A program made the translations under genes and the position numbers. The notes under the pieces are model-generated. The model did not search any database and was not told where the DNA came from. It saw only the letters and a program-made list of their open reading frames with translations. Below are positions 253 to 63,135 of a DNA stretch of 64,000 nt, piece by piece. Each line of letters opens with the position of its first letter. Position 1 is the stretch's first letter. Origin of the DNA: Candidatus Aenigmatarchaeota archaeon (GTDB lineage Archaea > Aenigmatarchaeota > Aenigmatarchaeia > PWEA01 > JACQIF01); the NCBI GenBank assembly GCA_016432325.1, contig CP066684.1, forward strand, positions 512,001-576,000. The letters run 5' to 3'.

Positions 253-1133
253 ACCCCGACAAACCTCGCCAGCCTCGAACGCGCCTCTTTTTCGTCTTTC
301 GCCTCTACGATTGCGCGGCCGCTCGCGAACAGTGAAATGCGCCGCGCGTCAGGCCAGACGTGCAACACGCCGTCGAACAGTTTCGTTTTGAATTTGCCTG
401 AAAGCGTCTTGTCAAGAGACGGCAAGTCCAATCGCTTGTTTAGCCTCATATGATACGCGTCTTTTGCGCACAGAGCGACAATAGTTTCTGTCCTCTCCAG
501 ATACTCGTACTTCTTTTGCGCGCACGCCGGGCAGTTCTTGCGCGGAGGAACGTCCGTCTTTGTTATCTCCTCGTGTGAAATGTCTATTAGGGTGCCGCCG
601 TTCGACCCCTTCAACGCATGCTCTGTCTGCAACGCCGCCACGCGCGACGCGGTCTCGTTGTCTATTCCAACGGTATCGCAGGTTTCGAGGGGTCCCGGCT
701 CCCGCGGAATCAAACATCTGAGGCACGGTTTCCCTTCCGGCGAAAAAGCCATCACGATGCCGCGGTCCTGCACTGCGCCTGCGTAAACCCAGAGCACGCC
801 GTTCGCCAAACAGTAGTCGTTCAGAAGAAAACGCGCCGCCATGTTGTCCGTGCAATCGAGAACGACATCCGGTTTCCCAAGAAGCCGGCCGATGCTGTTC
901 GCGTTTACGTCGTCGACGACGCCTTCTATTCCGAGCCGCTCGGCAACAACCAGCGCCTTTGCTTTTCCAACGTCGTTCTTATTGTACAACTTCTGGCGCT
1001 CCAGGTTTCTATCGTCGATGAAATCCCTGTCTATTACACGAACACTCGCGCCTGCTCTGGTTAGAAGCCCGGCCGTGCGCGTTCCTATGGCCCCCGCGCC
1101 AACAATAACGGCTTCTTTCCGCGTCTTTACCAC
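249..1133 (-). CDS. ThiF/MoeB/E1-like adenylyltransferase
   Basis: GAGAIG loop, DRD..NLERQ, DCTDN..R, CxxC pairs (CLRC, CPAC). Confidence 0.9.
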   Translation of the reverse strand: MVKTRKEAVIVGAGAIGTRTAGLLTRAGASVRVIDRDFIDDRNLERQKLYNKNDVGKAKALVVAERLGIEGVVDDVNANSIGRLLGKPDVVLDCTDNMAARFLLNDYCLANGVLWVYAGAVQDRGIVMAFSPEGKPCLRCLIPREPGPLETCDTVGIDNETASRVAALQTEHALKGSNGGTLIDISHEEITKTDVPPRKNCPACAQKKYEYLERTETIVALCAKDAYHMRLNKRLDLPSLDKTLSGKFKTKLFDGVLHVWPDARRISLFASGRAIVEAKDEKEARSRLARFVGV

Positions 1134-1180
1134 CAGCAGTGGTTATGACATGAAAGGCTTAAAGCCTTGCTGCGCGTAAG

Positions 1181-27971: not shown

Positions 27972-28059
27972 GCCCCAGTGGCTCAGTGGTAGAGCGCTTC
28001 CTTGGTATTCAGGAACGAACAGGAAGAAGTCACGCGTTCAATTCGCGTCTGGGGCTCCA
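27972..28059 (+). tRNA. tRNA-Thr(GGU) with 13-nt canonical intron (28008-28020)
   Basis: GCCCCAG...CTTCC TT-GGT-A[intron]A GGAAG...ACGCG TTCAATT CGCGT CTGGGGC T CCA. Confidence 0.95.
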
Positions 28060-55808: not shown

Positions 55809-56324
55809 TCACTTTGCCCGTCTGCCGCGCATCGCGTACTTTGGTCCTTCTGGCGTCTTGACAATCTTTAGGATTTTTCTGTGTCCCGCAAGAACATTGA
55901 GGTAGGGGGCCACTTCGTTCGGCTTGATTTTGTAGCCGGCCTTCTCAGCCCGCTCGACTATATCCGGTATGCCCAAGGCCCTCCTGCTTCTTTTGATGAG
56001 ATCAAACGCGTAGACGCCAGGCCTGAAAGAGTCGCTGTCGCTTTTTGCGCGTCTTCCCGCACGTCGCTGCGGGGTTTCCTGACCGTCTTCCTGTCGAACT
56101 TCATAGTCAAACTCTGTTCTCAGATAATCTCGTAGCTCCTGGTCGCTTTCTGCAATCTTGTAAATCTGCGTTCTCAAGTCCCGCGCATGTGAGTCCAGTT
56201 CCGAAACCCGCAAGACCATGCCTATGCACTCGGCAGCGCTCTGCTCGCGAGGCTCTGCGTATTTGCGTGCTAATCGCTGAGCCTTGTAATCCAAACGTGA
56301 CTTCCTTGGCATTCGATTCCCCAT
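55809..56324 (-). CDS. hypothetical protein, possible C-terminal winged helix
   Basis: 171-aa basic ORF. Confidence 0.6.
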   Translation of the reverse strand: MGNRMPRKSRLDYKAQRLARKYAEPREQSAAECIGMVLRVSELDSHARDLRTQIYKIAESDQELRDYLRTEFDYEVRQEDGQETPQRRAGRRAKSDSDSFRPGVYAFDLIKRSRRALGIPDIVERAEKAGYKIKPNEVAPYLNVLAGHRKILKIVKTPEGPKYAMRGRRAK

Positions 56325-56396
56325 ACAATTGATTGGTGCAAAGTTATTTAAAACAATGAGCGCCGTGGACGACCTCTTAGGCCTATTGCATCCTTG

Positions 56397-56891
56397 CTAC
56401 TTGCCCGACTTGACCGTCTCGACCGCACGGACGTCGCGAACTCGTTTCAGTTCCTCTTCCGAGAAGGGGGCAATAAAGACCAGCACGAAACCGTCTGGGT
56501 CACGGAAGGCCGCCTCGATGGTTCCCCAGTAATAGTGCCTAATCGGGACCTTGATGTTCACGTTTGCGTTCTTGAGAAGCGGGACCAATGACTCGACGCT
56601 GATCATCGCGGAGATTTTCGGCGTCTTCACCTGCTCCTTGAACACGGAGGAGTTCGTTATTGCAATGTGACCTTCAGCAATCTCAAGCTTTGCGCCGCCC
56701 GGAACCTCGAACGTCATCCCGCGGTAGCGTTCAGGAGCCGACGCTAGACCCTTCGGTAACGTTGAGCGAAACTTCTCGTCTCCGTACGCGAAGATGGGTC
56801 TGAATCCAAGTGACTCGTAGAACTTGCGCGACCTATCGAAGTCCCCTACCTTCAGGTGTATTCCAAGACCAGTAATCTTGCATTCTGACAT
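56397..56891 (-). CDS. VOC/glyoxalase-family protein
   Basis: LKVGDFDRSRKFYESLGF; YWG...FRDPDG. Confidence 0.9.
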   Translation of the reverse strand: MSECKITGLGIHLKVGDFDRSRKFYESLGFRPIFAYGDEKFRSTLPKGLASAPERYRGMTFEVPGGAKLEIAEGHIAITNSSVFKEQVKTPKISAMISVESLVPLLKNANVNIKVPIRHYYWGTIEAAFRDPDGFVLVFIAPFSEEELKRVRDVRAVETVKSGK

Positions 56892-57133
56892 TTCCGCAAC
56901 CTCTTTTGTGTAGCTATTTTCTACCCCTCTAGCATTCAACTTGGTTTAGTTTCACGATCGCTTGATATTGTGGTTTGGCTCAATCGGCGAACCGATAACG
57001 CGCCCCAATATGCGTTGCCTCCCCGTTTTCAACCATTCCACATTCATGACAATATTCGGCCTCCTGAGCATTTAAGGCTAACACAAGAGGTCGAACAGCG
57101 CCCGATATTATTATTTAAGGTGGTGGTGGCCGC

Positions 57134-58450
57134 TTAGGCGGTTTTGTTGCGCAGGGCGCCAAATCCGGGAATTTCAAACTCGGCCGCTCCCTTGTAGTAG
57201 TCGCGTATCCTGCTGAAGAGTGTTTTAATCTCTGGATTTTCATACGACTGCGTCTTAGTCGCTATTCGTTTCAGGGTTCTGTCGGGATCCTCGTTGAATT
57301 CCACTTGGAAATGTTCGACGCCGACCTTGAATATCAGCTCGGAGGCGTCCGTCCTGCTCCGCTTTGTTGTCGATTCGGAGAAGATCTCTTCAAGATTGTC
57401 ATCACTCAGGGGAAAATCAATCGGTTTCAGATGTTTTCCTATCCTAGGGATGATTCTAGGAAGTTGTTTCGCCAGAGTTTCGGCGTCGGGAAACATATTC
57501 GGCCACTCGCGCGTAAATATTTCGACCGCTTCAGACGTATATCCGTCGAGCGCCAGAGAGGCTATCGCGCCAGCCGCCTTGTTTCTTTCTAGAAACTGGC
57601 CTACTTGGTCTTCTGTGGGAGCGATCTTTCTCCTTAAAACATCGCGCCAGCCGTAGTTTATAGCAGCGCAGTATGCCCCCCTATCTACTTTAAAGAGTTC
57701 GACGGCGCTCAATCCTTCCAAGCCGTTCTCCTTCAAGTATGCGACAAACCCATCCTTCCCCATGGCTTTCCAACGACGCCACTTTGTATGCCGCCGTCTC
57801 AGAACATTCCTCCAGCCATGTCTCCTAGCGGCGTCGTACGCCGCATAATCCTTTTTTATGAGTTCGCCGGGGGTCAACTCGTCCAATCCATTCTCCTTCA
57901 AGTATGCAACAAACCTATCCCTGTCCATTGCCTTCCAGTTCCTACCTTTCTTGATTCTTATCAGAAGATCGGTCCAACAATACCTTCTGGCGGCATCATA
58001 CGCTCCCTTGTCTCTATCGTCAAGCTCCTTCGGACTTAGTCCTTCCAAGCCGTTCTCCTTCAAGTAATTTACAAACCCATCCTTCCCCATGGCTTTCCAA
58101 CGACGCCCTTTCTTCCGTTCCAATTTCAAAAGGTCAAGCCAACCATATACACGCGCGGCTCTGTAAGCTCCCGAATCCATTTCGTTGAGTTCCTGTGGAT
58201 GCACTCCTTCAAATCCGTTCTCCTTCAGGTAGCCGGCAAAATCCTCTTTGGTCATTCTGCTCCAATCTCTCTGCTGGGTTCCAGGTATAACATCAAGCCA
58301 ATCGTATCTTCTAGCGGCCTGGTAGGCCCCCTGGTCTTTTCTACTAAGCTCCCCATGGTTCAGCTTATTCAAACCGTTCTCTTTCAAGTAAGCAACGAAT
58401 CCGTCCTTGTCCATCTCTTTCCAGTTTCTTGGCTGTCGCGCCATGTTCAT
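57134..58450 (-). CDS. tandem-repeat protein (5 repeats plus conserved C-terminal domain)
   Basis: W..M.KDGF..YLKENGL..L...EL...D..AY.AA...GW x5. Confidence 0.9.
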   Translation of the reverse strand: MNMARQPRNWKEMDKDGFVAYLKENGLNKLNHGELSRKDQGAYQAARRYDWLDVIPGTQQRDWSRMTKEDFAGYLKENGFEGVHPQELNEMDSGAYRAARVYGWLDLLKLERKKGRRWKAMGKDGFVNYLKENGLEGLSPKELDDRDKGAYDAARRYCWTDLLIRIKKGRNWKAMDRDRFVAYLKENGLDELTPGELIKKDYAAYDAARRHGWRNVLRRRHTKWRRWKAMGKDGFVAYLKENGLEGLSAVELFKVDRGAYCAAINYGWRDVLRRKIAPTEDQVGQFLERNKAAGAIASLALDGYTSEAVEIFTREWPNMFPDAETLAKQLPRIIPRIGKHLKPIDFPLSDDNLEEIFSESTTKRSRTDASELIFKVGVEHFQVEFNEDPDRTLKRIATKTQSYENPEIKTLFSRIRDYYKGAAEFEIPGFGALRNKTA

Positions 58451-59922
58451 GCCTCTCTCAGTTTCCCGAAGCCCGGTATCTCGAACTCCATCGCGTTTCT
58501 ATAGTATTCGTGGACTCTCTTGAAAATGCTTCTAACTTCGGCCTTCTGTTGCGTGTTCACCATTCGTTCCAGCTCGGAAAGGACAGATCGTGGGTCGGCG
58601 TTGAATGTCGCCTGGTAGTGCTGGACTCCTATCTCATAAACAATTCCAGCGAGTTCCTTCCTGGTTGCTTTCGGCAAGTCCTTTGAAAATATCGTCTGGA
58701 GGCGGTCTTCATTGACCGGAAAATCCAGCGGCTTCAAGTGCTTTCCTATCTTGGGGACTATTCTGGGTAGCTGTTTTGCGAGCGTCGCGGCTACCGGAAA
58801 GGCGTTGGGCCATTCGCGCGCGAGTATGTCAACCACGTCGGAGGCGTAGCCGTCAACTGCCAGCGAGGCTATCGCGCTGGCGGCTTTGTTGTTCGCGAGG
58901 AACTTTTTTGCCTGGGTTTCTCTCTGGGCGATCTGTCTTTTCAACAGATCGAGCCACCCGTGTGTGCGAGCTGCTGCGTATGCCCCGCTATCTTTTCTAG
59001 CAAGTTCGCTGGGCGTCAATGTGTCCCATCCATTCGCTTCTAGGTAAGCAAGAAATTCTTCCCTACCAATATTCTTCCAATCTCTCCTCTTTCGTATTTG
59101 CCTTTTCAAAACGTCAAGCCAGTCATGCCTTAGAGCAGCTCCATACGCTTTATCGTCCCTTTTTTGGAGTTCCTCGGGGCTCAATTCAAACAACCCGCGA
59201 TCCTTGAGATATTCAATAAATCCCTTCTTGCCCATAGTCTCCCAGTAATGTCCTTCTGTCGGAGCCCTCCTTAGGATGTCTGTCCAACCGTATTTCTCGG
59301 CAGCATAACTCGCATGCCTGTCTCGCTTCTTAAGTTCGCCACGACTCAGGCCGGCTAACCCCTTATTCGTCAGGTATTGTTCGAATCCCGCTTTCCCCAA
59401 GTTCTTCCAATCTACCTCTTCTTTATCTCTCTTAGTCCTCACAACGTCAAGCCAGCCGTGATTTTTAGCGGCTTCGTATGCTTTTTTATCGATTGTTTGT
59501 AATTCGCCGCGACTCAATTTGTCTAGGTTTCTTTTTTGCAGATACTTGACAAATCCTTCCTTACCCATCGCACTCCAATTCCTTCCACGTGGCTGCTCCC
59601 TTTTCACGATGCTAATCCAGCCGTTTCTACAGGCGGCAGAGTAGGCTCTCAAATCCCTCGTCTGCAGTTCGCCGCGACTCAACCCATCCAACCCCCTCTC
59701 TTTCAGGTAAGCAACGAATCCCTCCTTGCCCATCCCTTCCCAGTCTATTCGCTCTCTTTTTACAGCATCGATCCAGCCGTGTACCTTTGCGGCTTCGTAG
59801 GCAGCCGGGTCTCTTTTCCTAAATTCCCCACGAGGCAAGCCTTCCAAGCCCCTTTCTGCCAGATATTCGATGAATCCGTTTTTGTCCATCTCTTTCCAAC
59901 GCTGTCTAGCCATGCCGAACAC
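58447..59922 (-). CDS. tandem-repeat protein (6 repeats plus conserved C-terminal domain)
   Basis: Same repeat x6; stop overlaps the downstream start. Confidence 0.9.
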   Translation of the reverse strand: MFGMARQRWKEMDKNGFIEYLAERGLEGLPRGEFRKRDPAAYEAAKVHGWIDAVKRERIDWEGMGKEGFVAYLKERGLDGLSRGELQTRDLRAYSAACRNGWISIVKREQPRGRNWSAMGKEGFVKYLQKRNLDKLSRGELQTIDKKAYEAAKNHGWLDVVRTKRDKEEVDWKNLGKAGFEQYLTNKGLAGLSRGELKKRDRHASYAAEKYGWTDILRRAPTEGHYWETMGKKGFIEYLKDRGLFELSPEELQKRDDKAYGAALRHDWLDVLKRQIRKRRDWKNIGREEFLAYLEANGWDTLTPSELARKDSGAYAAARTHGWLDLLKRQIAQRETQAKKFLANNKAASAIASLAVDGYASDVVDILAREWPNAFPVAATLAKQLPRIVPKIGKHLKPLDFPVNEDRLQTIFSKDLPKATRKELAGIVYEIGVQHYQATFNADPRSVLSELERMVNTQQKAEVRSIFKRVHEYYRNAMEFEIPGFGKLREA

Positions 59923-61060
59923 CTTTCATCTTCCCAAATCCAGGTATCTCGAACTCGGCCACAGCACTGTAGTATTCATGTATTCTACAGAAGATGTTTC
60001 TCACTCTCGGATTTTCATACGATTGCGTCTTGGCGTGCATTTTCTCCAGTGTTGCTGCTGGGTCTCTGTTGAATTGAAGTTGGAAATATTCGACGCCGAC
60101 ATTCAAGATTATGTCGGACGCTAGCATGTGGACTCTTTGTGGAACGTGTTCCGAAAATATTAGTTCAAGGTTTTCATTGTTTATGGGGAAATCCAGTGGT
60201 TTCACGTGCTTGCCTACACTGGGCACTATTCTAGGAAGTTGCCTCGCCAGCTCTTCTGCGTCAGGAAACACGCTTGGCCACTCCAGCGCCAATATGTCAG
60301 CCACATCGGAAATGTATCCATCGAACGCAAGTGAAGCTATCGCGTTAGCACTCTGGTTGCTCTCTAGGAATTGCTTTGCCTGCCTTTCTCTCGGGAACGT
60401 CTTTCTCTTCAGTATGTCCAACCAGCCGTGTTTACGAGCGGCTTTGTATGCACCGGGATCCTTTTCAGAGAGGCCTGTCGGGCTCAAGTTCTCCCATCCG
60501 TTCTTTTGCAGATAGTCAATGAAACCCCTCCTCCCCATCTCCTCCCAGTCCCTCGGCGCCCGGCGCGTTCTTTTCAATGCGTCCAACCAGCCGTGTTCGC
60601 GAGCGGCATCATAGGCGCCCGGATCCCTTCTCGCAAGCTCCTTGGGACCCAGCTCCCCCAGCCCTTCTTCCTCCATATAGGAGACGAAGCCCTCTCTGTC
60701 CATCTTCCCCCAGTTCCTTGCTTTCCGTTTCCCTCTCTTCAACACATCCAGCCAGCCGTACTTTTTAGCGGCACGATACGCATCTCCGTCTCTCTTCGCA
60801 AGTTCTGGGGGGCCTACATCGGCCAATCCGTTCTCTCTTAAATATTCGACGAACCTTTCCTTTCCCGTAACGCCCAAGTCCCTCCTGTCTGGGTTCTTTG
60901 CCTTCAAATCCATCCAAGATTCGTGGGCGGCGTCGTATACTAGAGGATTTCTTCTTCGAACCGTTGCTATGTCCTGTTCGTCCATTCCCCTCTCTTTCAG
61001 AAAACCGACGAATCCATCTTCGCCCATTTCCTTCCAGAACTCTTTGTTCCGCGTCATCAC
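59906..61060 (-). CDS. tandem-repeat protein (4 repeats plus conserved C-terminal domain)
   Basis: Same repeat x4; start overlaps the helicase stop. Confidence 0.9.
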   Translation of the reverse strand: MMTRNKEFWKEMGEDGFVGFLKERGMDEQDIATVRRRNPLVYDAAHESWMDLKAKNPDRRDLGVTGKERFVEYLRENGLADVGPPELAKRDGDAYRAAKKYGWLDVLKRGKRKARNWGKMDREGFVSYMEEEGLGELGPKELARRDPGAYDAAREHGWLDALKRTRRAPRDWEEMGRRGFIDYLQKNGWENLSPTGLSEKDPGAYKAARKHGWLDILKRKTFPRERQAKQFLESNQSANAIASLAFDGYISDVADILALEWPSVFPDAEELARQLPRIVPSVGKHVKPLDFPINNENLELIFSEHVPQRVHMLASDIILNVGVEYFQLQFNRDPAATLEKMHAKTQSYENPRVRNIFCRIHEYYSAVAEFEIPGFGKMKGVRHG

Positions 61061-63135
61061 TTCCCCCTCTTCCTGTCGCCTGCAAAGCTCATCTTGATGA
61101 CCCCGGGCGCGGCCTTGCCGCTCTTTCTCAATACGTAGAGGTCCATTCTGCTCGAACTCACGTTTGCGTGGTTGTCCTCACACTCGAAGCCGTAGAGCCT
61201 GAAGTTGTCCATCAGGTCGTTTCTGTCGGCATCGTCAAAATGCTGCGAAGGCACGACTACGATGGCCGAACCGTCGGACTTGAGAACGCGGTTGACCTCC
61301 TGCAGAACGATGGAACGCTCCTTTTTCGGCTCGGCTATGTGGAGGGCCAGAGAGAGGTTGACGAATCCAAAGCTACCATCGCGGTAGGGAAGCGACGAGA
61401 ACGTTCCTTCGGCGTGTGTACTATATGTGAGGCCGAGCTTGCCGCGACCGACCTTGAGGTTGGCTCTGTTGATGTCCAATATATAGGTGGGATGCCCACC
61501 GTGATAAGCGAGCATGCCCGCGCCGCCCGCGAGGTCGAGCCAAGGCTCGCTTGGAGCCAGCTTCTCTGCCACAGGCACGTATATGCTGGCCGCCTTCTTC
61601 GCGCCGCTGTAGTTCGGGTACATCTCGGCTATCTGCTTGGCGACCTCCGGATTCTTTTTAATTCTTCGCAAGGCTCCATCGGTTCCTATGCTCGGCCACT
61701 TCATGTAGTAGTCGAGGACTATCCTGTTGGTCGTCTTGATGGAGTTTTTAATCTTCGGGACCGTGCTCCGCCCGTCCATGTTCAAGAGGTCCTCTCTGGT
61801 TAGCTTGTAGCCTGACATGAGGTAGTCGACCACGCGTTCCTTCGCCTTGAGCATGTCGTACTGGGCCTGATCGAGAGATTTCCTTGCATCGCCCGGATAC
61901 TGGGCAAGGATGTTGTAGACGGTCACGCGCTCCTTCCTCATCTCCCCCGGGCGGACGGTTCTCTTTATGCGCTGGTTGTATTCGGCCGGTGTCCACGGAA
62001 GAGATAAATTCACGACCGCTGTGGCGGCCGTCAGGTCCACGCCCTCGTTCATGACTCCCGTGGAGATAAGAACCTTTGCGCGCGGATCCGTCTGGAACTT
62101 CCGTCTAATACTTTCCCGCTCGCCGTTGGCCACGTCCACATCGCCACTGATTGATACGGCACCATAGTTGGCGTAGCGTCTCTCGAGCTTGCCGACGATG
62201 CCTTCCTTGAGATGCGTGAAGACCAAGACCTTTCCACGCTTCGTTTCGCTCTCCACTATCTCGTCGAGCTTTTCGTACTTCGGCGAGACTGCCAGACCGT
62301 TTGTGATAAGGCTCTGGTCGGCAAGGGATGTATCGAGCAAAATCTTTTCCAGTTGTTTTATCTTCTTGCCGGGATGTAGCCGCTTCTCCAAGACGTCGTT
62401 GTAGGCCTCGAGCCAGCGACCGTCCATTTCAAGCATGACGTTCCGCTCCTTCCACTGGGGGAGTGCGTGACCTATGTAGTCTTGGGCGTTGCCGCGAATC
62501 ATTTTCCTCTGTATCAGGTGCTTGAAAACCTGAGGATCGTTCCAATAGATTGCCTCAAACTTCTGCCTCGCCTCCCTGTTTATGTCAGGGCTGTCTGAGA
62601 GCGGATATTCTTGAGGCTCCAACAGATGCATCAGCATATAGACATCGCTGATGGTATTGGGAACCGGTGTTCCGGAAAGTAGCGTAACGTACTCAGGATC
62701 TTCCGCGAGGCTGCGGATACTCTGGCTCCTGATGGCGCTGGGATTCTTGGTGTTGTGAACCTCGTCGAGAATGATATGGTCGAACCCATTCCTTTTCATC
62801 TTTCTGATAAACCCGTCCTTCCCGTGGGAGAGGAAGTCATAGTGAACTATCGTCCATTCGCTCGTGCCGTCCCATTTCTGGTAGCTGTCAACCGTCAGGT
62901 CAAAGACTTCCTGACCTCTAGGATATGCCCATGTCTCGATTTCATCCTTCCATTTAGACTTGACCGAGTTTGGGCAGACCACCAGGGCCTTTGTGTCGGT
63001 GTCATCACGTCTTATGACATTGTCGACGAAGACTGCCTGAGCTGATTTGTACATGCCCATGTCATGGGCTATAAGGAACCTCTTCTTCTCATACGCGCTC
63101 TTGACGCTGACATATTGAAATGGCTGCAGTTTCAT
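61057..63135 (-). CDS. SNF2-family helicase fused to class I SAM-dependent methyltransferase
   Basis: HDMGMYKS, LDEVH, LSGTP, EGVDL, Q...R..RPG; C-terminal WLDLAGGAG, LPY.DGSF, EVNRVLK.DG. Confidence 0.9.
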   Translation of the reverse strand: MKLQPFQYVSVKSAYEKKRFLIAHDMGMYKSAQAVFVDNVIRRDDTDTKALVVCPNSVKSKWKDEIETWAYPRGQEVFDLTVDSYQKWDGTSEWTIVHYDFLSHGKDGFIRKMKRNGFDHIILDEVHNTKNPSAIRSQSIRSLAEDPEYVTLLSGTPVPNTISDVYMLMHLLEPQEYPLSDSPDINREARQKFEAIYWNDPQVFKHLIQRKMIRGNAQDYIGHALPQWKERNVMLEMDGRWLEAYNDVLEKRLHPGKKIKQLEKILLDTSLADQSLITNGLAVSPKYEKLDEIVESETKRGKVLVFTHLKEGIVGKLERRYANYGAVSISGDVDVANGERESIRRKFQTDPRAKVLISTGVMNEGVDLTAATAVVNLSLPWTPAEYNQRIKRTVRPGEMRKERVTVYNILAQYPGDARKSLDQAQYDMLKAKERVVDYLMSGYKLTREDLLNMDGRSTVPKIKNSIKTTNRIVLDYYMKWPSIGTDGALRRIKKNPEVAKQIAEMYPNYSGAKKAASIYVPVAEKLAPSEPWLDLAGGAGMLAYHGGHPTYILDINRANLKVGRGKLGLTYSTHAEGTFSSLPYRDGSFGFVNLSLALHIAEPKKERSIVLQEVNRVLKSDGSAIVVVPSQHFDDADRNDLMDNFRLYGFECEDNHANVSSSRMDLYVLRKSGKAAPGVIKMSFAGDRKRGK

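What the first reader, a model, noticed from the sequence alone, without database searches (positions are those of the whole stretch)
57134..61060. Fifteen helical repeats with hypervariable positions: possible recognition code
The scaffold is nearly fixed (W..M...GF..YL...GL..L...EL...D..AY.AA...GW) while positions around D-x-x-A-Y-x vary: DGDAYR, DPGAYD, DPGAYK, DPAAYE, DLRAYS, DKKAYE, DRHASY, DDKAYG, DSGAYA, DQGAYQ, DSGAYR, DKGAYD, DYAAYD, DRGAYC, NPLVYD. Linkers are Arg/Lys-rich. Inference: each unit is an HTH-like DNA-binding module with a variable recognition helix, which could give a programmable zinc-finger/TALE-like array. From memory it resembles the 'EF.K....AY..A...GWLD' repeats of some phage endonuclease-associated proteins.
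Basis: partly seen in the sequence, partly recalled or inferred. Interest (0 to 1): 0.82.

Follow-up and report, generated by a model that had tools for sequence, protein, structure and literature searches.

The report
Repeat-array adaptors for an SNF2-methyltransferase
The fifteen helical repeats lie in three neighbouring sister genes of a tiny archaeon. Each gene joins a string of small three-helix modules, of a kind also found on phage-type DNA-cutting enzymes, to a shared tail predicted to clip onto the helicase-methyltransferase encoded just upstream. This looks like an undescribed way of steering a DNA motor-methylase to chosen sites.

Summary
All 15 repeats are real, but they sit in three tandem paralogous genes on the minus strand, with 4, 6 and 5 repeats. 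Each gene ends in a conserved domain of about 157 aa (CTD). All three are translationally coupled to an upstream SNF2 helicase/SAM-methyltransferase fusion.

Each unit of about 55 aa is predicted as a discrete three-helix module followed by a basic linker. It has no Pfam, NCBIfam or PDB sequence match. An exhaustive HMMER search finds homologous repeats elsewhere, and 20 of 71 repeat-only relatives carry a GIY-YIG nuclease domain.

The CTD is a separate module. In 8 of 8 informative loci it lies next to the same SNF2-MTase, once fused to it in frame. Its N-terminal partner varies: this repeat, classical HTH arrays, or a third repeat type. A complex prediction supports docking (ipSAE 0.70, best control 0.00).

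Best reading (about 0.6): these are interchangeable nucleic-acid-targeting adaptor subunits for the SNF2-MTase.

A TALE-like code is not supported. Units are only about 48% identical and variation is dispersed. However, columns 24, 27 and 35 on helices 2 and 3 are the most variable both here and in an independent 11-repeat homologue.

First-reader notes of this scan already flagged this same stretch as a candidate SNF2-MTase system. A follow-up report on it exists and was withheld.

The parts
61057..63135 (-). SNF2-family ATPase (aa ~15-440) fused to a class I SAM methyltransferase (aa ~530-650), 692 aa. Predicted catalytic core of the system. Its stop overlaps the start of gene A.
   Evidence: Pfam SNF2-rel_dom 5e-23, Helicase_C 1e-20, Methyltransf_11 1e-8. 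Closest solved relative is the Sulfolobus Rad54-like SNF2 ATPase 1Z63. About 35 close homologues share the same fusion, two of them named Candidatus Pacearchaeota.
59906..61060 (-). Gene A, 384 aa (GTG 61060 or ATG 61057): four repeats plus the C-terminal docking domain.
60383..61036 (-). Repeat array of A: units A1-A4, aa 9-226. A1 is the most divergent (NPLVYD, 25-42% identity to the other units).
59909..60382 (-). C-terminal domain (CTD) of A, aa 227-384, ending in the invariant EFEIPGFG motif.
58447..59922 (-). Gene B, 491 aa as listed. The likely true start is ATG at 59913, giving MARQRW and overlapping the stop of A by 8 nt (ATGGCTAG). Six repeats plus CTD.
58915..59898 (-). Repeat array of B: units B1-B6, aa 9-336.
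58450..58914 (-). CTD of B, aa 337-491.
57134..58450 (-). Gene C, 438 aa. Its ATG overlaps the stop of B (ATGA). Five repeats plus CTD.
57608..58423 (-). Repeat array of C: units C1-C5, aa 10-281. C3 and C5 share a ~60-nt near-identical tract (57717-57773 and 58044-58100).
57137..57607 (-). CTD of C, aa 282-438.

Best explanation
Genes A, B and C encode three alternative targeting (adaptor) subunits for the SNF2 ATPase-methyltransferase encoded immediately upstream in the same operon.

Each adaptor has two parts.
1. An N-terminal string of 4-6 independent three-helix modules joined by Lys/Arg-rich linkers. These are inferred to bind nucleic acid, most likely double-stranded DNA. The exposed faces of helices 2 and 3 (columns 24, 27, 31, 35, 38, 39) would supply whatever specificity there is.
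2. A ~157-aa all-helical C-terminal domain. Its invariant C-terminal EFEIPGFG hairpin is predicted to dock on the N-terminal lobe of the SNF2 domain.

The adaptors would thus bring the translocase-methylase to particular sites. Three paralogues with different arrays would give three target sets, functionally like multiple specificity subunits of a type I restriction-modification enzyme.

Shown: the anatomy, the homology of the repeats to GIY-YIG-associated repeats, the modular exchange of arrays on a constant CTD, and the conserved adjacency and one fusion with the SNF2-MTase.

Inferred: DNA binding, docking, the methyl acceptor, and the biological role. The role could be a defence-like epigenetic marking system or locus-specific regulation.
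For: 1. Operon. Four same-strand genes have overlapping stop and start codons (GTGA/TGATG, ATGGCTAG, ATGA).
2. Conserved context. In 8 of 8 informative loci from other metagenomes and genomes the CTD-bearing gene lies next to an orthologous ~700-aa SNF2+Methyltransf_11/25 fusion (local HMM check). Tandem CTD paralogues recur in L016, and possibly in one further contig where the second gene was not tested for a CTD.
3. Natural fusion. P0103 (L014) has the CTD joined by about 8 residues to the N-terminus of the SNF2-MTase. There the IPGxG motif is degenerate (IPQNE).
4. Complex prediction, P0004 plus CTD. The ipSAE was 0.70 against a best control of 0.00. That mark was reached by 58 of 80 solved complexes and 2 of 110 mismatched pairs (counts hold only roughly because my own alignments were used). 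The runs share at least 71% of contacts and the partner's pLDDT is at least 77. The interface is CTD residues 250-264 (the EFEIPGFG motif) against P0004 residues 1-12, 36-43 and 71, which fits the geometry of the fusion. No similar complex has been solved.
5. The CTD is a constant module on variable arrays. Among the 148 HMMER hits, 24 have this repeat plus the CTD, and 47 have the CTD with another N-terminus. Those other N-termini include eight-fold classical HTH arrays (P0061) and a third ~60-aa repeat type (P0045, P0053).
6. The repeat is a nuclease-associated module. 20 of 71 repeat-only relatives carry PF01541 GIY-YIG, with repeats on both sides of the nuclease domain.
7. Physical properties. 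The units are discrete three-helix modules with ~10-residue coil linkers. The arrays have pI 9.5-9.7 and net charge +8 to +17, and the linkers are 39% K+R.
8. Shared variable columns. Columns 35, 27 and 24 top the entropy ranking both in the 15 local units and in the 11 units of P0007.
9. The SNF2 domain is closest to a dsDNA translocase, 1Z63.
Against: - No direct evidence exists for nucleic-acid binding or for any sequence specificity.
- The unit has no detectable sequence relation to classical HTH domains. Its fold could not be compared with solved structures because the CTD dominated every fold search.
- The turn between helices 2 and 3 is a single residue, shorter than in canonical HTH motifs.
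- The methyltransferase lacks the (D/N/S)PPY motif of DNA amino-methyltransferases. It resembles small-molecule, RNA or protein methylases, and some homologues also hit the Rrp8- and Bmt2-type rRNA methylase families. The substrate may therefore not be DNA.
- SNF2 motif I is atypical (GMYKS).
- The fusion is known from a single short contig.
- DUF488, which usually accompanies the module elsewhere, was not found in this genome.
- pN/pS at the variable columns is 0.86 with saturated pS, so relaxed constraint explains the variability as well as selection for diversity does.
Confidence: 0.6

Rival explanations
1. One reading: a programmable TALE- or zinc-finger-like array. Each repeat would read one base or a short word through a few hypervariable residues around D-x-x-A-Y-x, so specificity could be read off or re-engineered.
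For: The units are discrete and linked by basic linkers. Columns 31 and 35 are among the most variable. Column 35 is the single most variable column both here and in P0007, whose scaffold is much more uniform at 61% median identity. The variable columns follow helical periodicity on helices 2 and 3 (24/27/31 and 35/38/39).
Against: The units are only 48% identical, with variation spread over about 30 of 55 columns. The repeats are ancient, with saturated synonymous sites, and there is no sign of cassette-like recent shuffling apart from one ~60-nt conversion tract. There is no evidence of positive selection. No target DNA is known. Repeat numbers of 4-11 and linkers of variable length do not suggest a fixed register on DNA.
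Confidence: 0.08
2. The arrays do not bind DNA. They would be protein- or RNA-binding scaffolds, or even methylation substrates through their Lys/Arg-rich linkers, that regulate or are modified by the SNF2-methyltransferase.
For: The methyltransferase domain is of the Methyltransf_11/25 type without DNA-methylase motifs. Homologues also hit the Rrp8/Bmt2 rRNA methylase families. There is no sequence link to known DNA-binding domains. The fold of the repeat was not tested against solved structures.
Against: The same repeat family flanks GIY-YIG DNA nucleases. It is replaced by bona fide HTH arrays on the same CTD in the same operon position. SNF2 ATPases are dsDNA translocases, and the closest solved relative is 1Z63.
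Confidence: 0.2
3. The three genes are decayed or domesticated remnants of homing-endonuclease DNA-binding regions carried on a mobile island. They would have no functional tie to the SNF2-methyltransferase beyond being neighbours.
For: The repeats are homologous to those of GIY-YIG proteins. The three genes have lower GC (0.50-0.51) than their flanks (0.55-0.58). The distribution is patchy: the CTD was found in 4 of 371 genomes searched in the phylum.
Against: The frames are intact and under purifying selection (pN about 0.3 against pS 0.65-0.81 in the CTDs and in the repeats). No GIY-YIG domain was found anywhere in this genome. Adjacency to the SNF2-MTase holds across distant loci and there is an in-frame fusion. 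The docking prediction passed its controls.
Confidence: 0.07

Closest known systems
Unnamed repeats flanking GIY-YIG nuclease domains in phage and bacterial 'GIY-YIG nuclease family' proteins (e.g. hits P0110, P0132, P0107)
   Same: The ~45-55-aa unit is homologous. It shares the core L-S/T-R-x-E-L-x-K-x-D-x-x-[AFY]-Y ... G-W/L-[LI]-D, occurs in tandem arrays, and scores library-wide E-values down to about 1e-9.
   Different: The window's proteins have no nuclease domain, and none was found in the genome. Their arrays are joined instead to a novel docking domain and an SNF2-methyltransferase. The repeat family itself has no Pfam model and no solved structure.
Type I restriction-modification specificity subunit (HsdS) with the HsdM and HsdR motor
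   Same: It works alike in outline. A separate, paralogue-rich targeting subunit would dock on a methyltransferase plus SF2 translocase and set its DNA target. Several alternative targeting genes lie side by side.
   Different: There is no homology: no Methylase_S hit. The translocase is SNF2-type and is fused to the methylase. The methylase is not an N6A, N4C or C5 DNA methylase by motif. No nuclease is present. The targeting part is a string of small modules, not two TRDs on a coiled coil.
TALE repeats and C2H2 zinc-finger arrays
   Same: These are tandem small modules in which a few exposed positions vary on a conserved scaffold, as an idea for modular recognition.
   Different: No near-identical repeats, no diresidue, no continuous superhelix (coil linkers), no zinc ligands, and no demonstrated code.
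DUF723 / CapR-type Zn-finger DNA-binding repeats of T5orf172 and GIY-YIG homing endonucleases (PMC10448857)
   Same: They are repeated DNA-binding modules attached to phage nucleases. Clusters carrying them are the nearest ESM-Atlas structural neighbours, at a weak TM of 0.3-0.46.
   Different: DUF723 is built on a CxxC...CxC zinc finger. The units here contain no such cysteines and give no PF05265 hit.
SNF2-plus-methyltransferase defence systems (DISARM DrmD/DrmMI, BREX, Dpd)
   Same: An SNF2-family ATPase is associated with a methyltransferase in a patchily distributed accessory locus. P0004 gives partial hits to DrmD, ZorD and DpdE.
   Different: Scores are far below the family cut-offs (81 bits against 610 for DrmD). 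The other defining genes are absent. The adaptors have no PADLOC match. The methylase class differs.

Membership tests
TALE-like programmable repeat array | Near-identical repeats differing essentially at one or two hypervariable residues | tested here: not met
   Median unit identity is 48%. About 30 of 56 columns have entropy above 1.5 bits, and columns 27, 49, 51 and 24 are as variable as 31 and 35.
TALE-like programmable repeat array | Repeats pack into one continuous superhelical solenoid around DNA | tested here: inconclusive
   The AF2 model (pLDDT 90.5) shows separate three-helix units joined by ~10-residue coil linkers of lower confidence. This is a model only, without DNA.
Classical helix-turn-helix domains (Pfam HTH clan) | Sequence or profile similarity to an HTH family | tested here: not met
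   No HTH family among the Pfam hits at E<=1. hhalign of the unit profile against the HTH repeats of P0061 gave probability 0.4%. The PDB profile search gave only chance-level rows.
Classical helix-turn-helix domains (Pfam HTH clan) | Tri-helical fold with helix 2, a turn, and a recognition helix 3 | tested here: inconclusive
   Three helices are predicted, but the turn is a single residue (D30). The fold searches were filled by the CTD, so the unit was not really compared.
GIY-YIG-associated repeat family (unnamed, no Pfam model) | Significant homology of the unit to repeats in proteins that carry PF01541 | tested here: met
   The exhaustive HMMER search found 272 representatives at E<=1e-3. 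20 of 71 repeat-only hits carry GIY-YIG, and six were confirmed individually.
GIY-YIG homing endonuclease | Presence of the GIY-YIG catalytic domain | tested here: not met
   No PF01541 hit in A, B or C, and none found in the whole genome.
DUF723 (PF05265) / CapR Zn-finger repeats | CxxC...CxC zinc-binding motif and a match to PF05265 | tested here: not met
   No Pfam hit. Cysteine occurs only sporadically in the units. The motif definition is taken from PMC10448857.
NUMOD1/3/4 nuclease-associated DNA-binding modules | Match to the Pfam NUMOD models | tested here: not met
   Not listed among the hmmscan results at E<=1 for A, B or C, nor at E<=0.01 for six GIY-YIG relatives. Remote structural kinship was not tested.
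Type I R-M specificity subunit HsdS | Methylase_S target-recognition domains | tested here: not met
   No such Pfam or NCBIfam hit. The resemblance is functional only.
DISARM DrmD / Zorya ZorD / DpdE SNF2 helicases (for the upstream gene) | Score above the NCBIfam equivalog cut-off | tested here: not met
   DrmD scored 81 bits against a cut-off of 610, DpdE 79 against 500, and ZorD 53 against 1500.
Array-CTD / SNF2-MTase module (defined here) | A gene bearing the CTD (WPxRFP, YQxxFNxxP and FxIPGxG motifs) lies adjacent to a ~700-aa SNF2+Methyltransf_11 fusion | tested here: met
   Seen in the window and in 8 of 8 informative loci elsewhere.
Array-CTD / SNF2-MTase module (defined here) | DUF488 gene downstream | tested here: not met
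   DUF488 is present in 6 other loci. PF04343 was not found in this genome, which is 90% complete in a single contig.

The most novel reading that the evidence does not exclude
This would be a previously undescribed, modular 'array-guided' chromatin or DNA-modification machine of DPANN archaea. An SNF2 translocase fused to a non-canonical methyltransferase would be steered by interchangeable adaptor subunits. A universal docking domain on these adaptors carries any of at least three kinds of tandem DNA-binding modules. Within the three-helix kind, the exposed columns 24, 27, 31, 35, 38 and 39 of helices 2 and 3 would set the DNA word read by each unit, so arrays of 4-11 units would specify long composite targets.
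Probability: 0.3. Interest if true: 0.85.

Novelty: new variant of a known kind. Interest (0 to 1): 0.7.

Why it matters
If the model holds, three things follow.
- A large set of 'hypothetical' repeat regions on GIY-YIG nucleases would gain an identity as a new nucleic-acid-binding module.
- It would define a new docking domain.
- It would reveal how genome-reduced DPANN archaea direct an SNF2 motor-methylase to chosen sites with swappable targeting subunits.

That is a natural example of modular enzyme targeting. It is distinct from type I R-M, TALEs, zinc fingers and RNA-guided systems. The parts are small (about 45 aa) and could be tested unit by unit for specificity.

The full-text searches run here found no description of the SNF2-MTase/CTD/DUF488 module. 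PADLOC and Pfam have no model for either the repeat or the CTD.

Tried and rejected
- TRF found no tandem repeat at DNA level. The repeats are too diverged, although repeat finder recovers all 15.
- The word-index protein search found only the window's own proteins. A search for longer forms added nothing new, and a region search for more CTD-SNF2 fusions timed out. Recurrence of the fusion is therefore untested.
- Pfam, NCBIfam, PADLOC and PHROGs gave no meaningful family for A, B or C. The sub-threshold hits (EF-hand_like, MOV-10_N and others) cover 10-20 residues and were rejected as chance.
- PDB sequence searches with a single protein and with the unit profile gave nothing credible.
- The single-sequence AF2 model of A was poor (pLDDT 60) and was used only as a second search model.
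- hhalign of the repeat profile against classical HTH repeats showed no similarity.
- The DUF723 lead from the ESM Atlas (TM 0.3-0.46) was rejected as family membership, because DUF723 is a Zn finger.
- dN/dS tests for diversifying selection were inconclusive because synonymous sites are saturated.
- Synteny with the same-genus genome G001 was uninformative. The contig ends just after the aEF-2 gene.
- Literature searches for the SNF2-MTase/DUF488 combination returned nothing relevant.

Full report
**What is at the coordinates**

The interval 57134-61060 holds three complete genes on the minus strand, not one.
- Gene A: 59906-61060, 384 aa.
- Gene B: 58447-59922, 491 aa as listed.
- Gene C: 57134-58450, 438 aa.

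Anchoring on the D-x-x-A-Y-x-A-A and W...F..YL motifs finds 4, 6 and 5 units, 15 in all. Each protein then continues into a non-repeat C-terminal domain (CTD) of about 157 aa. The CTDs are 52-55% identical among the three paralogues and end in an invariant EFEIPGFG.

Directly upstream on the same strand is a 692-aa protein at 61057-63135. It fuses an SNF2-family ATPase to a class I SAM-dependent methyltransferase. All four genes overlap stop-to-start, which indicates one translationally coupled operon. By analogy with A and C, gene B most likely starts at ATG 59913.

The host is a small archaeal genome of 874,869 bp in one contig, about 90% complete. Archaeal eRF1, NOG1, aEF-2 and a class I tRNA synthetase lie nearby. 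Close homologues of the SNF2-MTase are labelled Candidatus Pacearchaeota.

**Is the repeat real, and how variable is it?**

The 15 units align over 56 columns. F9, A36, A37 and W42 are invariant. W1, Y12, L13, G17, D30, A33 and Y34 are nearly invariant. At DNA level the 15 copies recur every 156-168 nt, although TRF misses them.

The repeats are old.
- Median pairwise identity is 48% at amino-acid level and 58% at nucleotide level.
- Median pS is 0.77, which is saturated, and median pN is 0.32, so selection is purifying overall.

Columns 31 and 35 of the DxxAYx motif are indeed highly variable (2.97 and 3.11 bits). Columns 27, 49, 51, 24, 3 and 11 are about as variable, and column 32 is Gly in 8 of 15 units. 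The phrase 'nearly fixed scaffold with hypervariable positions' therefore overstates the case.

One pair, C3 and C5, shares about 60 nt of near-identity over helix 1. The other half of that pair has pS 0.94, so this is a short gene-conversion tract, not diversification.

The arrays are basic, with pI 9.5-9.7 and net charge +8 to +17. The linkers are 39% Lys+Arg, against 17% in the unit cores.

**Structure**

With a 72-row alignment, AF2 models the last two units of A plus its CTD at mean pLDDT 90.5.
- Each unit has helix 1 (GFxxYL), a loop, helix 2 (xxELxxR), a one-residue turn at D30 and helix 3 (xxAYxAAxx). A short GWLD turn and about 10 residues of coil follow.
- The units are therefore discrete three-helix modules on basic tethers, not a continuous solenoid.
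- The conserved residues A33, Y34, A36, A37, W42, F9, Y12, L13 and L26 are the hydrophobic ones. The variable columns 24, 27, 31 and 35, 38, 39 follow helical periodicity on the opposite faces of helices 2 and 3. This last point is an inference from the sequence pattern.
- The CTD is eight helices plus a tiny hairpin at the EFEIPGFG motif.

No fold search gave a match above the noise expected for helical proteins, and all lists were dominated by the CTD. The fold of the unit itself was effectively not compared with solved structures.

**Relatives**

Pfam, NCBIfam, PADLOC, PHROGs and PDB sequence searches give nothing meaningful for A, B or C. The word-index search finds only the window's own proteins.

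An exhaustive HMMER search with a profile of two units plus the CTD finds 272 cluster representatives at E<=1e-3, of which 92 are at E<=1e-10. Mapping local HMMs on the 148 listed hits shows two separable modules.
- 70 proteins have repeats only.
- 47 have the CTD only, with a different N-terminus.
- 24 have both.
- 7 were assigned to neither module at the thresholds used.

Of 71 repeat-only proteins, 20 carry a GIY-YIG nuclease domain, typically with units on both sides of it. The unit belongs to a widespread family of nuclease-associated repeats that has no Pfam model.

DUF723, suggested by weak ESM-Atlas structural neighbours, is a CxxC...CxC zinc finger (PMC10448857). It is not this unit.

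Among CTD proteins with other N-termini, 8 of 50 carry arrays of classical HTH domains; P0061 has eight. Others (P0045, P0053) carry a third ~60-aa repeat type. From memory that type resembles homing-endonuclease-associated repeats, but Pfam gave no hit at 1e-4. P0019 carries a diverged form of the present unit.

The same tail thus accepts at least three kinds of tandem modules. At least one kind is certainly DNA-binding, and another is nuclease-associated.

**Genomic context elsewhere**

In every informative locus the CTD gene lies next to an orthologue of the ~700-aa SNF2+Methyltransf_11/25 fusion. Nearly always it is immediately downstream with overlapping ends. The loci are:
- L006 (P0007, 11 units), and an ENA contig carrying P0008;
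- L007 (P0010);
- L011-L013 (P0019);
- a Logan contig carrying P0045;
- L016, with two tandem HTH-array-CTD paralogues after the 3' end of the SNF2-MTase;
- L017 (P0155, followed by a five-unit CTD protein);
- G139, where the gene order is reversed.

These come, and were verified with local HMMs.

In L014 the CTD is fused in frame to the N-terminus of the SNF2-MTase through about 8 residues. There the otherwise near-invariant IPGxG is degenerate.

A small DUF488 gene usually follows the module. It was not found in this genome. The CTD was found in only 4 of 371 genomes searched in the phylum. The three genes have lower GC than their flanks. Both points suggest an accessory, horizontally mobile module.

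**Docking test**

A complex prediction of the full SNF2-MTase with the CTD, both supplied as alignments, scored ipSAE 0.70 in three runs. All three controls scored 0.00.
- This mark was reached by 58 of 80 solved complexes and 2 of 110 mismatched pairs in the tool's calibration. The counts hold only roughly here because my own alignments were used.
- The runs share at least 71% of their contacts, and the partner's pLDDT is at least 77.
- The interface puts the CTD's EFEIPGFG hairpin (residues 250-264 of the modelled fragment) against residues 1-12, 36-43 and 71 of the SNF2 N-lobe. That geometry agrees with the natural fusion, where the CTD C-terminus is tethered to the SNF2 N-terminus.
- No comparable complex is solved, so the pass is unlikely to come from memory.

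The result supports binding but does not demonstrate it.

**Mechanism proposed**

A, B and C are alternative adaptor subunits. Their CTD docks on the SNF2-MTase. Their arrays of three-helix modules and basic linkers bind nucleic acid, most likely dsDNA, and so direct the translocase-methylase to particular sites. Three paralogues would give three target sets. This works like multiple HsdS genes of type I R-M systems, without any homology to them.

The SNF2 domain is closest to the Sulfolobus Rad54-like dsDNA translocase, although its motif I is atypical (GMYKS). The methylase lacks DNA amino-methylase motifs and is of the Methyltransf_11/25 type. Some homologues also hit the Rrp8/Bmt2 families. 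The methyl acceptor is therefore open: an unusual DNA position, RNA or protein.

Whether the module serves defence-like self-marking or locus-specific regulation is also not resolved.

**The 'recognition code'**

A weak form of the idea survives. P0007 is an independent 11-unit homologue whose scaffold is more uniform (61% median identity). In it, entropy is concentrated in columns 35, 27, 43, 24, 38 and 39. Columns 35, 27 and 24 are also among the top four here, and per-column entropies correlate at r=0.47.

The columns were chosen for being variable. Their pN/pS is 0.86 with saturated pS, which cannot separate diversifying selection from relaxed constraint.

A TALE-like one-repeat-one-base code is not supported (about 0.08). 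A specificity surface on helices 2 and 3 is plausible but untested.

**Novelty**

The repeat is a new, unmodelled member of the broad class of nuclease-associated DNA-binding modules. The CTD has no known relatives with a function. The literature searches found no description of the SNF2-MTase/array-CTD/DUF488 module.

First-reader notes of this scan already flagged this same stretch as a candidate SNF2-MTase system. A follow-up report on it exists and was withheld. My link to the SNF2-MTase was reached independently, before that look-up.

Noticed in passing
window 27972-28059 (+): ARAGORN calls an 88-nt tRNA of undetermined type with a four-base anticodon 'gtat'. It could be an intron-containing archaeal tRNA or an unusual one.
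   Followed up: no
window 57717-57773 and 58044-58100: Two 57-nt stretches, covering helix 1 of units C5 and C3, differ at only 4 positions, while the rest of the two units has pS 0.94. This is a short gene-conversion tract inside gene C.
   Followed up: yes
window 61057-63135 (-), aa 24-31 and ~595-605: SNF2 motif I reads GMYKS; the family consensus is GMFKT, against the usual GLGKT. The methylase has DLAGGAG but no (D/N/S)PPY-type motif. Catalytic competence and the methyl acceptor are both open.
   Followed up: partly
window 59911-59913: Gene B probably starts at this ATG (MARQRW...), overlapping the stop of A by 8 nt. It probably does not start at the GTG listed, nor at the later ATG used in the public protein (480 aa, P0005).
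   Followed up: partly
L005 (G001:C39) 510-1163, minus strand: The same-genus genome has a 217-aa ORF with two weak, diverged units of the same kind (L-x-R-x-[EQ]-[LI]-x-E-K-D-x-S-L-Y) and no CTD. The match has E 7e-4.
   Followed up: partly
L006, L011-13, L016, L017 and two further contigs (FzKZPYKW, DICP1PP0): A small DUF488 (PF04343/PF22751) gene follows the SNF2-MTase/adaptor genes in 6 loci, sometimes after a ~133-aa unknown gene. It is a likely third component of the module, and it was not found in this window's genome.
   Followed up: partly
P0045 and P0053 (CTD proteins from other metagenomes): These carry a third ~60-aa repeat type (P-x-G-Y-W ... L-P ... G-x-S-x-L ... H-G-G ... L-G) in 5-6 copies, plus one classical HTH just before the CTD. 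Pfam gave no hit for the repeat at 1e-4.
   Followed up: no
window 56001-60000: GC drops to 0.50-0.51 over the three adaptor genes, against 0.55-0.58 in the flanking housekeeping genes. GC and AT skews are strongly negative there.
   Followed up: no
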